Below, piece after piece: positions 16,439-30,575 of a stretch of DNA of 64,000 nt. Origin of the DNA: Escherichia phage SmurfNell. The position numbers and the translations under genes were made by a program. Under the pieces are notes generated by a model. It had not been told where the DNA came from, did no database searches, and saw only the letters and a list, made by a program, of their open reading frames with translations. Where the stretch lies: the sequence record OR896824.1. The stretch is one strand, 5' to 3'. How positions within the stretch are numbered: the first letter of the stretch is position 1; every line of letters begins with the position of its first letter.

Positions 16439-16756
16439 ATGATTTTTCATATTCTGATTGATGATGTTCGTGACCTGCATGGGATGGATATTATCATTCG
16501 AACCCCCGAAGCCGCTATTGAGTTTCTGAATACAACCGATACCACCGGACATTTCGTTTATATGGATAATGATCTGGCTGTAGATGGTATGGAAGGTTAT
16601 CAAATTCTTCGTTTACTCCTAGAATTTGGACAGAGACCCAAGAAAGTGGTACTAGTAACCTCGAACCCTGTAGCTAAGCAGAACATGCGTAATGATTTGC
16701 TTGACGAAGGGTATCAAGAAAGCCCTAATCGTATTGAGTACGATTGGCCGGAGTAA
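16439..16756 (+). CDS. hypothetical protein
   Basis: 105 aa ORF. Confidence 0.5.
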   Translation: MIFHILIDDVRDLHGMDIIIRTPEAAIEFLNTTDTTGHFVYMDNDLAVDGMEGYQILRLLLEFGQRPKKVVLVTSNPVAKQNMRNDLLDEGYQESPNRIEYDWPE

Positions 16757-17279: not shown

Positions 17280-17450
17280 ATGAAATCAGTTGTAATTATT
17301 GGTGTTAATACCCGTGGTATCCGTACTACGAAAACAGTTAAAACTACTAACGTTGCTGAAATTACTACAAACCCTAAGAAGTTTGATTTCGCCAAAGTCT
17401 CGGCAGTTATGACAGAACAATCTTTTAACCAAGCACTGGGAATTAAATAA
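17280..17450 (+). CDS. small hypothetical protein (56 aa)
   Basis: ORF below the track cutoff, found by reading downstream of the promoter; stop overlaps the next start. Confidence 0.4.
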   Translation: MKSVVIIGVNTRGIRTTKTVKTTNVAEITTNPKKFDFAKVSAVMTEQSFNQALGIK

Positions 17451-17893
17451 TGGAAGAAAATATTCTAAATGTTTTGCGTAGGGCTTTGCAGGAATCTAAG
17501 ATTGATGGCTCTGATAAAGAGGTAGCTAAAAGCTACCAGACCATAATCGAAGATCTTCAGCGTGTTGATAAAGACTTCATTACTTCTGAACAGTTTGTGT
17601 CTTATCTCAAAGCTCAGCTGAAAAGCATTAATCAGACGAAAGCTAAACTTCATGGTCAAGACCTTGATAATTATAGCTTGCAGTCTGCTCAGTATGAATA
17701 TATACTGAACAAATGGCTACAACAGTATCTGCCGCCTCAGCTTTCTGATTCTGAGATTCGCAAATACTTTGCAGAATTAGTTAAGTTGAACCCTGGGATT
17801 ACGAAGAGTATGCTGATGAAAGCGATTAAGGAAGAATTCCCTGGTCGTTATGACGGTGGCATCGCTGCTCAGGTTGCTGGCGAATTTAACTAA
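17450..17893 (+). CDS. hypothetical protein
   Basis: 147 aa ORF. Confidence 0.5.
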   Translation: MEENILNVLRRALQESKIDGSDKEVAKSYQTIIEDLQRVDKDFITSEQFVSYLKAQLKSINQTKAKLHGQDLDNYSLQSAQYEYILNKWLQQYLPPQLSDSEIRKYFAELVKLNPGITKSMLMKAIKEEFPGRYDGGIAAQVAGEFN

Positions 17894-23313: not shown

Positions 23314-23390
23314 GGGGGTGTAATCGAATTGGCATAGGTACTGGACTTAAAATTCAGGTTTTGTGGGTTCGAATCCCACCACCCCTACCA
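23314..23390 (+). tRNA. tRNA with UAA anticodon (Leu-type), class I architecture
   Basis: Acceptor GGGGGTG/CACCCCT (G1-U72), anticodon loop CTTAAAA, 5 nt variable loop, T-loop TTCGAAT, A73, CCA. Confidence 0.55.
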
Positions 23391-25406: not shown

Positions 25407-25489
25407 GGGTCGTTAGCCAAGCGGTTTGGCGGTGGACTGTTAATCCATGTCGAAAGACAACGTAGGTTCGAATCCTACACGGCCCGCCA
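25407..25489 (+). tRNA. class II-type tRNA carrying a GUU (Asn-type) anticodon
   Basis: Acceptor GGGTCGT/ACGGCCC, anticodon arm GTGGA-CTGTTAA-TCCAT, 13 nt variable arm, G73, T-loop TTCGAAT, CCA. Confidence 0.55.
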
Positions 25490-25591
25490 TATTCTGTGTA
25501 GAGTTAAGTAAACCGGTAGCCAACCAGCTATCATTACTGATATTGAATTCAGTCACAGATACCATTTTCATTAATAACTGAGGAAATAGAT

Positions 25592-28413: not shown

Positions 28414-28875
28414 ATGGCTAGAACAGATATATTGGAAAGAAAGGATGAAATTCTTCTCTGGATAGAAGAAAATCAACCCAAAGCTGAAATTGCTAGAAGA
28501 TTACGCTGCAAAGTTGATACACTGAATACTTATCTGAAAAAGATGGGAATACAATATTCAGGTAACTCTGCTAGAAAAGGTTTTATACGTTCTGAGATAC
28601 AGGATGGGTATATTCCGGCAGTGAATTACTTTTACAAAAATAGCCCAATATCTTCTAGTCAGCTTAGAATAAAGATACTACGTGATGGCTTAAAACCTCA
28701 CAAATGTGAAAATTGTAATTTATCTGAATGGATGGGAGTTCCAATCCCCTTAGAGTTAGAGCATAAAGATGGTGATCATTATAATAATGAGTGGGATAAT
28801 TTAGCTTTATTATGTCCCAACTGTCATACACTAACAGATACACATTCAGGTAAGAATAAAGGAACATACGCGTGA
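28414..28875 (+). CDS. HNH endonuclease with N-terminal HTH, inserted in the tRNA island
   Basis: C-terminal HKCENCN...EHKDGDHYNNEWDNLALLCPNCH HNH motif. Confidence 0.75.
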   Translation: MARTDILERKDEILLWIEENQPKAEIARRLRCKVDTLNTYLKKMGIQYSGNSARKGFIRSEIQDGYIPAVNYFYKNSPISSSQLRIKILRDGLKPHKCENCNLSEWMGVPIPLELEHKDGDHYNNEWDNLALLCPNCHTLTDTHSGKNKGTYA

Positions 28876-28946
28876 TTGATGGAATTGGCATACATACCGT
28901 CCTTAGAAGTCGGGTTTTGAGGGTTCGAATCCCTTGTCACGCACCA
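28870..28946 (+). tRNA. tRNA with UAG anticodon (Leu-type), class I architecture
   Basis: Acceptor GCGTGAT/GTCACGC, anticodon loop CTTAGAA, 5 nt variable loop, A73, CCA; scaffold resembles the tRNA at 23314; 5' end overlaps the HNH stop. Confidence 0.5.
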
Positions 28947-30500: not shown

Positions 30501-30575
30501 GCTCCTAAAGCATTGCTGGCGATGCAGTTGCCTTGTAAGCATCTGAACCGGGTTCGATTCCTGGTGGGAGCACCA
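30501..30575 (+). tRNA. tRNA-Thr (anticodon UGU)
   Basis: Acceptor GCTCCTA/TGGGAGC, D-arm GCAT..ATGC, anticodon loop CTTGTAA, T-loop TTCGATT, CCA. Confidence 0.7.

What the first reader, a model, noticed from the sequence alone, without database searches (positions are those of the whole stretch)
25407..25489. Class II (long variable arm) tRNA carrying an Asn-type GUU anticodon
The fold gives a 13 nt variable arm, a 3 bp D-stem and G73, which are Ser/Tyr-like class II features, but the anticodon loop reads CTGTTAA. Because seryl-tRNA synthetase identity depends on the long arm and acceptor rather than the anticodon, such a tRNA could in principle decode AAY codons with a non-Asn amino acid, or be a phage-specific Asn tRNA with an atypical body.
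Basis: partly seen in the sequence, partly recalled or inferred. Interest (0 to 1): 0.55.

Follow-up and report, generated by a model that had tools for sequence, protein, structure and literature searches.

The report
Phage asparagine tRNA with extra arm
This T5-like phage carries a real asparagine tRNA with an extra hairpin arm that asparagine tRNAs are not supposed to have; the same oddity recurs in many unrelated phages, is almost absent from cells, and may help phage tRNAs survive bacterial tRNA-cutting defences.

Summary
ARAGORN, Rfam and MFE folding all give an 83-nt tRNA at 25407-25489 with anticodon GUU, G73, an encoded CCA and a 13-nt variable hairpin (GUC-GAAA-GAC-AAC).

The arm is selected. 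In 13 distinct relatives from T5-like and T4-like phages, 3 of its 4 base pairs change compensatorily and all stay paired.

It belongs to a large class. 68 distinct long-armed tRNA-Asn(GUU) sequences turned up, making roughly a fifth of pattern-matched viral tRNA-Asn. Only 7 occur among 185,579 species genomes, six of them inside dense tRNA arrays.

Identity marks are Asn-type: G73 in 63/68 and U1-A72 in 37/68. The arm geometry is Tyr-type (3-4 bp, three 3' unpaired nucleotides), not Ser-type. I therefore read it as an Asn-charged decoder, not a mistranslator.

T5 itself has a class I tRNA-Asn in the same slot, with an altered anticodon stem. The long-armed alleles keep a host-like stem. A sister long-armed tRNA-Thr(UGU) from phage Bas33 is reported to counter the OLD tRNase. 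An arm acting as a nuclease shield is plausible but untested.

The gene is already annotated as tRNA-Asn. I found no description of the class II architecture or its spread.

The parts
25407..25489 (+). Complete tRNA-Asn(GUU) gene, 83 nt, with encoded CCA
   Evidence: ARAGORN; Rfam tRNA 59 bits; cloverleaf MFE fold; identical in Bas26 GreteKellenberger and about 200 phage records
25407..25413 (+). Acceptor stem 5' strand GGGUCGU. It pairs with 25479-25485 (ACGGCCC), giving G1-C72, G2-C71, G3-C70
   Evidence: Sequence; 3 of 7 pairs covary in relatives and 100% are paired
25416..25430 (+). D arm: GCCA / AGCGGUU / UGGC. Three constant pairs plus a possible A13-U22 pair; relatives have G13.A22
   Evidence: class-wide, only 14/68 long-armed Asn tRNAs pair 13-22 versus 100/116 short ones
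25432..25448 (+). Anticodon arm GUGGA-CUGUUAA-UCCAU. The anticodon GUU lies at 25439-25441. Positions 36-41 read UAAUCC, as in E. coli tRNA-Asn
   Evidence: the AriB cleavage site 40|41 is described in PMC12409363
25449..25461 (+). Extra (variable) arm: stem GUC/GAC (25449-25451 with 25456-25458), GAAA tetraloop (25452-25455), and unpaired AAC (25459-25461)
   Evidence: Compensatory variants in relatives: GUCA-GAAA-UGAC, GUUC-GAAA-GAAC, AUCC-GCAA-GGAU, GUCG-GUAA-CGAC
25462..25478 (+). T arm GUAGG-UUCGAAU-CCUAC
25486..25486 (+). Discriminator G73, an Asn identity element
   Evidence: Sequence; G73 in 63/68 long-armed Asn tRNAs although the search pattern did not specify it; PMC9976931
25324..25399 (+). 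Upstream neighbour tRNA-Cys(GCA), 7 nt away. It defines the syntenic slot in which T5 carries a class I tRNA-Asn instead

Best explanation
This is a functional phage tRNA that decodes AAC/AAU as asparagine. It is built on a class II-like body with a short tRNA-Tyr-type extra arm. Host AsnRS most likely charges it through the two known E. coli Asn identity elements, anticodon GUU and G73. The arm is tolerated by AsnRS, EF-Tu and the ribosome, as the arms of tRNA-Tyr, Leu and Ser are. It is one allele of a polymorphic tRNA-Asn slot in T5-like phages. It belongs to a broad lineage of long-armed tRNA-Asn genes that circulates in phage and mobile tRNA arrays and is almost absent from cellular tRNA sets.

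Shown: the fold; purifying selection on the arm; the Asn-type marks; the Tyr-type arm geometry; the viral distribution.

Inferred (about 0.75): charging with Asn.

Inferred more weakly (about 0.3): why the arm is kept. My preferred reading is that it hinders host tRNA-cutting defence nucleases that grip the anticodon stem and tRNA core, such as the PARIS AriB and OLD-type TOPRIM tRNases. The arm leaves the core 3 nt from the 40|41 scissile bond. That would let the phage tRNA keep a host-like anticodon stem, whereas the class I alleles escape by stem substitutions.
For: Fold and anticodon.

Selection on the arm: 13 distinct relatives, 99.7% of cells paired, arm helix with 3 of 4 pairs changed on both sides, slid controls 31-48% paired. 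Class-wide, 58/64 arms have a stem of at least 3 bp (shuffles 36.7 +/- 3.6), 35/64 have at least 4 bp (9.9 +/- 2.6), and 40/64 are GNRA-capped (0.4 +/- 0.7).

Asn identity: GUU plus G73 is the E. coli Asn identity set and is transplantable into tRNA-Lys (PMC9976931). G73 occurs in 63/68 and U1-A72 in 37/68 long-armed Asn tRNAs. For comparison, viral tRNA-Tyr has A73 in 59/62 and viral tRNA-Ser has G2-C71 in 91/99.

Arm geometry: Asn-long has a median 15 nt, a 3-4 bp stem, 0-1 unpaired 5' and 3 unpaired 3', which matches Tyr (14 nt, 3 bp, 0-1 and 3). Ser has 18 nt, 5-6 bp, and about 1 and 1. E. coli tyrV's arm C-GUC-AUC-GAC-UUC resembles the window's GUC-GAAA-GAC-AAC.

Distribution: about 284 phage records at 90% identity or more, plus homologues in T4-like Klebsiella, Serratia and Enterobacter phages. 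94 long-armed copies in IMG/VR, about 16 of the first 76 pattern-matched tRNAs. Only 7 in 185,579 species genomes, six of them in arrays of 10-26 tRNAs per 8 kb.

Slot polymorphism: T5 has a 78-nt class I tRNA-Asn at the same position, with anticodon stem UAAGUU.

Functional analogy: Bas33 HildyBeyeler carries a long-armed Asn and an 87-nt long-armed Thr(UGU) with a host-like UAAUCA stem. Plasmid-borne Bas33 Thr(UGU) 'provided strong counter-defense' against the OLD tRNase (10.64898/2026.07.10.737580). Bas33 escapes PARIS when given only T5 tRNA-Lys (PMC12409363). Bas34, which needed T5 tRNA-Asn, turns out to carry a decayed long-armed copy with a broken acceptor stem.
Against: No aminoacylation, expression or cleavage data exist for this tRNA. 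The window copy has the acceptor and D-stem marks of E. coli tRNA-Ser (G1-C72, G2-C71, C11-G24, G73), so some serylation cannot be excluded. AsnRS is a class IIb enzyme of the kind that approaches tRNA from the variable-region side (my own knowledge), so an extra arm could hinder it.

For the shield idea: Asn is only a secondary AriB target. The Bas33 phenotypes are confounded by other differences between the tRNAs. The dichotomy of host-like stem plus arm versus altered stem without arm rests on two isotypes in one phage family. Long arms also occur sporadically on Glu, Cys, Met, Trp and Ile(UAU) tRNAs. My pattern search fixed the anticodon stem, so the dichotomy could not be tested broadly.
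Confidence: 0.62

Rival explanations
1. Neutral legacy. The gene descends from a class II tRNA, most plausibly tRNA-Tyr(GUA), by A36U and A73G. It now serves as an ordinary Asn tRNA. The arm has no role of its own and is conserved only because the class II core needs it to fold.
For: GUA and GUU differ by one base. The arm geometry and length equal those of tRNA-Tyr. The GUC/GAC stem and 13-nt length are the same as in E. coli tyrV. The D arm is class II-like across the class. Identity is 60% to tyrV versus 55% to asnT.
Against: More than half of the class has the Asn-typical U1-A72, which is rare in Tyr (3/62). Similarity of acceptor stem, D arm and T loop is slightly higher to class I Asn than to Tyr (0.705 versus 0.682). 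The arm persists across 68 very different bodies and about a fifth of pattern-matched viral tRNA-Asn, yet is nearly absent from cells, which argues for a virus-specific advantage. 12 of 104 loci keep a class I and a long-armed Asn tRNA together, often adjacent.
Confidence: 0.25
2. Mistranslating tRNA. SerRS, or another enzyme for class II tRNAs, charges it through the arm, G73 and G1-C72/G2-C71, so AAY codons are partly read as Ser during infection.
For: SerRS ignores the anticodon and relies on the long arm, G73 and the acceptor pairs (PMC9976931). The window copy has G1-C72, G2-C71, C11-G24 and G73. Natural precedents exist: allo-tRNAs (PMC7609411) and nematode nev-tRNAs (my own knowledge).
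Against: The arm is Tyr-type, not Ser-type. As I recall Himeno et al. 1990 (NAR 18:6815; the paper could not be opened), tRNA-Tyr needed nucleotides inserted into its arm as well as G73 to become a good Ser acceptor. 34/68 class members carry C2-G71, a SerRS antideterminant, and 41/68 lack G1-C72. The complete Asn identity set is conserved. This is the only Asn tRNA among the 30 tRNAs ARAGORN finds in the window, and Asn is about 5.5% of codons. G73 blocks LeuRS and TyrRS (PMC9976931).
Confidence: 0.07
3. Mainly a non-translational decoy. The molecule acts chiefly as a competitive inhibitor of tRNA-targeting nucleases, for example a tRNA-Tyr look-alike for Septu/retron PtuAB-type enzymes, or an AriB sponge, rather than as a decoder.
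For: PMC12409363 raises the possibility that overexpressed viral tRNAs inhibit AriB by competition. Septu is reported to cleave the variable loop of tRNA-Tyr (PMC13096335 abstract). This tRNA is Tyr-shaped.
Against: All translation-relevant features are conserved: a 7-nt anticodon loop with U33 and A37, the T loop, G18G19, CCA and G73. The OLD study found that Bas32 tRNA-Thr supplements rather than inhibits. No data exist for this tRNA.
Confidence: 0.05
4. Pseudogene or prediction artefact.
For: T5-like tRNA regions do contain decayed tRNAs. The Bas34 copy of this very gene has a broken acceptor stem. The rna3 tRNA-like element lies immediately 3' of the gene.
Against: All five helices are perfectly paired. 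Covariation is seen in every helix. The sequence is 100% identical in about 200 independent phage genomes.
Confidence: 0.01

Closest known systems
E. coli tRNA-Asn(GUU) (asnT/U/V/W)
   Same: Anticodon GUU. Loop CUGUUAA. G73. Positions 36-41 read UAAUCC. The U33-G34-U35 and U36-A37 contexts that (my own knowledge) direct queuosine-34 and t6A-37 modification are present.
   Different: asnT is class I: 76 nt, a 5-nt variable loop, U1-A72/C2-G71/C3-G70, and a 4-bp D stem GUUC/GAAC. Overall identity is only 55%.
Bacterial tRNA-Tyr(GUA), a class II tRNA
   Same: 13-nt variable arm with a 3-bp GUC/GAC stem and three 3' unpaired nucleotides. AGCGG-type D loop. G1-C72. G34-U35 in the anticodon.
   Different: Position 36 is U, not A. 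The discriminator is G73, not A73, and both A73 and U35/A36 matter for TyrRS, while G73 is an antideterminant (PMC9976931). The tetraloop here is GAAA.
Phage T5 tRNA-Asn(GUU), T5t17, one of the three T5 tRNAs that neutralise PARIS
   Same: Same syntenic slot between tRNA-Cys and rna3/T5.068/tRNA-Asp. Same anticodon, G73 and encoded CCA.
   Different: The T5 gene is class I (78 nt), 48% identical, and has an altered anticodon stem (UAAGUU, with a U.U mismatch) at the AriB site. The window gene keeps the host-like stem and has the extra arm. The experiments in PMC12409363 used the T5 version, not this one.
Long-armed tRNA-Thr(UGU) of T5-like phages (Bas33 HildyBeyeler and about 99 other records)
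   Same: A class I isotype carrying a short GNRA-capped extra arm (GGA-GUAA-UCC) with 1 unpaired nucleotide 5' and 4 unpaired 3'. Host-like anticodon stem. Same phage family. It alternates with a class I allele that has stem substitutions.
   Different: Different isotype and body. It has indirect functional evidence, being counter-defence against OLD, which the Asn tRNA lacks.
Class II tRNAs with non-Leu/Ser/Tyr anticodons: allo-tRNAs, nematode nev-tRNAs, tRNA-Ser anticodon mutants
   Same: A long variable arm combined with an anticodon of a class I amino-acid family.
   Different: Those tRNAs are charged according to the body (Ser, Ala or Leu) and mistranslate or recode (PMC7609411; nev-tRNAs from my own knowledge). 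Here the body also carries the identity marks of the anticodon's own amino acid, and the arm is not Ser-type.

Membership tests
tRNA (Rfam RF00005) | Cloverleaf with 7-bp acceptor stem, D arm with G18G19, 5-bp anticodon stem with 7-nt loop and U33, and a T arm with a UUCGAAU-type loop | tested here: met
   59 bits versus the gathering score of 29; ARAGORN; covariation in all helices
tRNA-Asn (substrate of bacterial AsnRS) | Anticodon G34 U35 U36 | tested here: met
   GUU at 25439-25441; invariant in relatives
tRNA-Asn (substrate of bacterial AsnRS) | Discriminator G73 | tested here: met
   G at 25486; 63/68 across the long-armed class; identity role per PMC9976931
tRNA-Asn (substrate of bacterial AsnRS) | Actual aminoacylation with asparagine | not testable with these tools
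   Needs in vitro charging or acyl-tRNA mass spectrometry
tRNA-Asn (canonical bacterial body) | Class I body with a 4-5 nt variable loop; U1-A72 | tested here: not met
   13-nt variable hairpin and G1-C72; contrast with asnT
Class II tRNA architecture | Variable region of at least 10 nt forming a stem-loop | tested here: met
   13 nt, GUC-GAAA-GAC, with covarying pairs
Class II tRNA architecture | 3-bp D stem with unpaired 13:22 | tested here: inconclusive
   The window copy can pair A13-U22. Relatives have G13.A22. Class-wide, 13-22 is paired in only 14/68, by a simple positional parse.
tRNA-Ser (substrate of bacterial SerRS) | Ser-type long arm: a stem of about 5-7 bp with about 1 unpaired nucleotide on each side | tested here: not met
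   3-bp stem with 0 unpaired 5' and 3 unpaired 3'. Viral Ser median is 18 nt with 5-6 bp.
tRNA-Ser (substrate of bacterial SerRS) | G1-C72, G2-C71, C11-G24, G73 | tested here: met
   All are present in the window copy, but 34/68 of the class have C2-G71.
tRNA-Tyr (substrate of bacterial TyrRS) | A73 and anticodon GUA (U35, A36) | tested here: not met
   G73 and U36; viral Tyr has A73 in 59/62
Nuclease-evading phage tRNAs (PARIS / OLD / retron counter-defence tRNAs) | Substitutions at or next to the nuclease cleavage site relative to the host tRNA | tested here: not met
   Positions 36-41 read UAAUCC, identical to E. coli asnT. Only 28:42 differs, U-A versus C-G.
Nuclease-evading phage tRNAs (PARIS / OLD / retron counter-defence tRNAs) | Demonstrated resistance to cleavage, or rescue of infection | not testable with these tools
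   Only indirect evidence: the Bas33 and Bas34 phenotypes in PMC12409363 and 10.64898/2026.07.10.737580, combined

The most novel reading that the evidence does not exclude
Adding a short Tyr-type extra arm is a second, structural route by which phage tRNAs escape host tRNA-cutting immunity, alongside the known anticodon loop and stem substitutions. The arm sits at the junction of the anticodon stem and the tRNA core. It blocks TOPRIM-type and possibly other tRNases while leaving aminoacylation identity intact. That would explain why class II-shaped tRNA-Asn, and sporadically Thr(UGU), Lys(UUU) and others, are common in phage tRNA arrays and almost absent from cells.
Probability: 0.3. Interest if true: 0.8.

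Novelty: new variant of a known kind. Interest (0 to 1): 0.62.

Why it matters
Textbook tRNA biology restricts long variable arms in bacteria to Leu, Ser, Tyr and Sec. A conserved, covarying class II-shaped tRNA-Asn is present in hundreds of T5-like and T4-like phage genomes and in dozens of unrelated viral lineages. That shows the class I / class II divide is not fixed by isotype, and that AsnRS (and by analogy ThrRS) systems presumably tolerate an extra arm. The strong bias towards viruses, together with recent work showing that phage tRNAs exist largely to outlast tRNA-cleaving defences, makes a concrete hypothesis directly testable with simple arm-swap constructs. It would also matter for annotation, since these genes are listed as plain tRNA-Asn or missed, and for engineering orthogonal or nuclease-proof tRNAs.

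Tried and rejected
1. Recent remoulding from the phage's own class II tRNAs was rejected. The window's Tyr, Ser and Leu tRNAs are no closer to the Asn tRNA (0.45-0.62) than its class I tRNAs are.

2. A nearest-neighbour analysis of acceptor stem, D arm and T loop against 1,668 distinct tRNAs gave only a weak preference for class I Asn over Tyr, Ser or Leu (0.705 versus about 0.68). It does not settle the origin.

3. Identity to E. coli tyrV (60%) versus asnT (55%) is too close to call.

4. I first took Bas34 to be GreteKellenberger. Locus tags show that phage is Bas26. Bas34 is SelmaRatti, found through the alphabetical accession order.

5. A link between the arm and the phage's YqeY/GatB-tail-like protein (17450-17893) was dropped. 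The Pfam match is below threshold, and T5, which has a class I tRNA-Asn, carries a gene annotated 'tRNA amidotransferase' (T5.081) at the corresponding position; I did not align the two proteins.

6. The promoter and terminator scan around the gene found nothing above shuffles.

7. Literature searches for a described long-armed tRNA-Asn found none. The held library lacks most subscription journals, so prior description cannot be excluded. Himeno 1990 could not be opened, and the PARIS paper's supplements are not held.

8. The denominator of class I tRNA-Asn in cellular genomes could not be measured, because only one genome scan is allowed.

Full report
**What is there**

The window is a T5-like (Epseptimavirus) phage genome segment. 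It is 99.8% identical to Salmonella phage S116 around the finding.

Three independent methods agree on the fold.
- Rfam's tRNA model scores 59 bits against a gathering score of 29. It aligns the whole cloverleaf and places a 10-nt insertion in the variable region.
- The thermodynamic MFE structure is a cloverleaf plus one extra hairpin.
- Read directly: acceptor GGGUCGU/ACGGCCC; D arm GCCA-AGCGGUU-UGGC; anticodon arm GUGGA-CUGUUAA-UCCAU; variable arm GUC-GAAA-GAC-AAC; T arm GUAGG-UUCGAAU-CCUAC; G73; encoded CCA.

- The D stem can be 4 bp in this copy (A13-U22).
- G73 is the Asn (and Ser) discriminator, not a Tyr feature.

**The arm is under selection**

Homologues of full length occur in about 284 phage records at 90% identity or more. 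More distant copies (77-88% identical) occur in T4-like Straboviridae of Klebsiella, Serratia, Enterobacter and Cronobacter, and in Proteus phage PM135.

The arm changes by compensatory substitutions: GUC-GAAA-GAC, GUCA-GAAA-UGAC, GUUC-GAAA-GAAC, AUCC-GCAA-GGAU, GUCG-GUAA-CGAC and GUC-UUAG-GAC.

On 13 distinct sequences:
- 99.7% of cells are paired, against 31-48% when partners are slid.
- Every helix has at least one pair changed on both sides.
- The arm helix has 3 of 4 such pairs and is 100% paired.

**It is one member of a large, mostly viral class**

I scanned IMG/VR with a pattern that fixes only part of the anticodon arm and of the T arm and requires a long spacer. It returned 119 stretches. 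ARAGORN finds 94 long (81-92 nt) tRNA-Asn(GUU) copies in them. Together with the other sources this gives 68 distinct sequences with very different bodies.

- Arms across the class: 58/64 form a stem of at least 3 bp, 35/64 a stem of at least 4 bp, and 40/64 are GNRA-capped. Shuffled arms give 36.7, 9.9 and 0.4 respectively.
- Share of viral tRNA-Asn: a scan that accepts both short and long spacers returned, in scan order, 60 short and 20 long hits among the first 80 listed. Sixteen of the long hits are tRNAs. So roughly a fifth of viral tRNA-Asn with this motif are long-armed.
- Cellular genomes: the long-spacer pattern found 36 stretches in one genome for each of 185,579 species. Only 7 are long-armed tRNA-Asn. 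Six of the seven sit in arrays of 10-26 tRNAs within 8 kb, which is the signature of phage or mobile tRNA arrays.
- Coexistence: in 12 of 104 loci a class I and a long-armed tRNA-Asn(GUU) occur together, often adjacent, with unrelated bodies.

**Which amino acid?**

The E. coli Asn identity set is the three anticodon bases plus G73. It can be transplanted into tRNA-Lys. G73 is an antideterminant for LeuRS and TyrRS (PMC9976931).

The window tRNA has the full Asn set. Across the long-armed class, compared with other viral tRNAs in the same loci:

| Feature | Long-armed Asn | Comparison |
|---|---|---|
| G73 (not specified by the search pattern) | 63/68 | Tyr has A73 in 59/62 |
| U1-A72 (Asn-typical) | 37/68 | about 10% of other tRNAs |
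| C2-G71 (SerRS antideterminant in E. coli tRNA-Leu) | 34/68 | Ser has G2-C71 in 91/99 |

The arm geometry separates the classes cleanly:

| Class | Median arm length | Stem | Unpaired 5' | Unpaired 3' |
|---|---|---|---|---|
| Long-armed Asn | 15 nt | 3-4 bp | 0-1 | 3 |
| Viral Tyr | 14 nt | 3 bp | 0-1 | 3 |
| Viral Ser | 18 nt | 5-6 bp | about 1 | about 1 |
| Viral Leu | 13 nt | 4 bp | 0 | about 1 |

E. coli tyrV's arm (C-GUC-AUC-GAC-UUC) even shares the stem of the window's arm.

The number of paired and unpaired arm nucleotides is what class II synthetases are thought to read (PMC9976931). Asn codons are about 5.5% of the window's long ORFs. I therefore conclude the tRNA is charged with Asn. 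Because the window copy also has G1-C72, G2-C71 and C11-G24, I leave about 7% for significant serylation.

**Origin**

Origin is unresolved. The body is Tyr-shaped, and GUA to GUU is a single change. However, sequence similarity does not discriminate, and half of the class has Asn-type acceptor ends.

**Why keep the arm?**

T5 itself has a different tRNA-Asn in the same slot, between tRNA-Cys and rna3/T5.068/tRNA-Asp. It is a 78-nt class I gene whose anticodon stem is altered (UAAGUU). That type occurs in 146 phage records.

The T5 tRNA is one of three (Lys UUU, Thr UGU, Asn GUU) shown to neutralise the PARIS nuclease AriB. AriB cuts the host tRNAs between positions 40 and 41 at UAAUC|N (PMC12409363).

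The long-armed Asn alleles keep the host-like UAAUCC. The same dichotomy holds for Thr(UGU):
- T5, Bas32 and the window have a class I gene with UAAGCA.
- About 99 T5-like records, including Bas33 HildyBeyeler, have an 87-nt gene with host-like UAAUCA and a GGA-GUAA-UCC extra arm.

Published phenotypes fit an arm that does not impair function and may protect.
- Bas33 has long-armed Asn and Thr tRNAs and no Lys(UUU). It escapes PARIS when given only T5 tRNA-Lys.
- Bas33 Thr(UGU) expressed from a plasmid gave strong counter-defence against the OLD tRNase, better than T5's Thr.
- Bas34 needed T5 tRNA-Asn. It carries a decayed long-armed copy with a broken acceptor strand, which ARAGORN no longer calls.

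None of these papers mentions the arm. 'Variable' does not occur in PMC12409363.

[quoted passage not shown] OLD excises the whole anticodon arm. The extra arm emerges at exactly that junction. This mechanism is an inference, and I give it about 0.3.

**Comparison and novelty**

The gene is annotated as tRNA-Asn in many GenBank records, so its existence is known. I did not find described, in eight literature searches including two reviews of non-canonical tRNAs:
- that it is a class II-shaped Asn tRNA;
- that the arm covaries;
- that such tRNAs make up a sizeable share of phage tRNA-Asn yet are nearly absent from cells;
- that a sister long-armed Thr(UGU) exists.

It is a new structural variant of a known kind, not a new kind of molecule.

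Noticed in passing
window 23314-23390 and 28870-28946: Both phage tRNA-Leu genes (UAA and UAG anticodons, A73) are 77 nt with a 5-nt variable loop, so they are class I-shaped leucine tRNAs, the mirror image of the finding. 59 of 154 distinct tRNA-Leu in the viral and mobile loci I collected are also short.
   Followed up: partly
L286 6001-6087 (Bas33 HildyBeyeler); also L015 and L067: An 87-nt tRNA-Thr(UGU) with a GNRA-capped extra arm (GGA-GUAA-UCC) and a host-like anticodon stem occurs in about 99 T5-like phage records. It alternates with the class I T5-type allele that this window carries at 30501-30575. The Bas33 version is reported to counter the OLD tRNase, but the arm is not mentioned.
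   Followed up: partly
L289 4598-4680 (Bas34 SelmaRatti): The gene annotated tRNA-Asn is a decayed copy of the long-armed type. Its acceptor 3' strand is broken and C32 is changed to U, and ARAGORN does not call it. This offers an explanation for why Bas34 needed T5 tRNA-Asn to escape PARIS.
   Followed up: yes
window 25490-25566: This is the homologue of T5 'rna3, putative tRNA-like RNA', directly 3' of the tRNA-Asn and conserved between T5 and this phage although the tRNA-Asn gene itself has been swapped. It folds into an acceptor-like stem plus two hairpins, z = -2.6.
   Followed up: partly
window 17450-17893 (+): A 147-aa ORF with a weak YqeY/GatB-tail-like match (PF09424, 23.8 bits, below the cut-off of 27). 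By position upstream of tRNA-Arg it appears to correspond to T5.081, annotated 'tRNA amidotransferase'; I did not align the two. Its role alongside the tRNA cluster is unknown.
   Followed up: partly
viral loci L018, L020, L022, L023, L024, L041, L138, L167, L246: 9 of 24 distinct viral tRNA-Ile(UAU) are 91-96 nt long. They have a long variable-region hairpin whose loop repeatedly reads CAGAUUAG or CAGAUAAU. This is a second recurrent long-armed class I isotype in phage tRNA arrays.
   Followed up: no
L057, L061, L073, L100, L106, L119, L123 and others: Class I and long-armed tRNA-Asn(GUU) genes sit side by side, 5-30 nt apart, in the same viral contig with unrelated bodies. This suggests the two forms are not redundant.
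   Followed up: partly
window 16439-16756 (+): A 105-aa ORF matching Pfam cREC_REC, 'cyclic-phosphate processing receiver domain' (58.6 bits), lies just upstream of a cell-wall hydrolase ORF.
   Followed up: no
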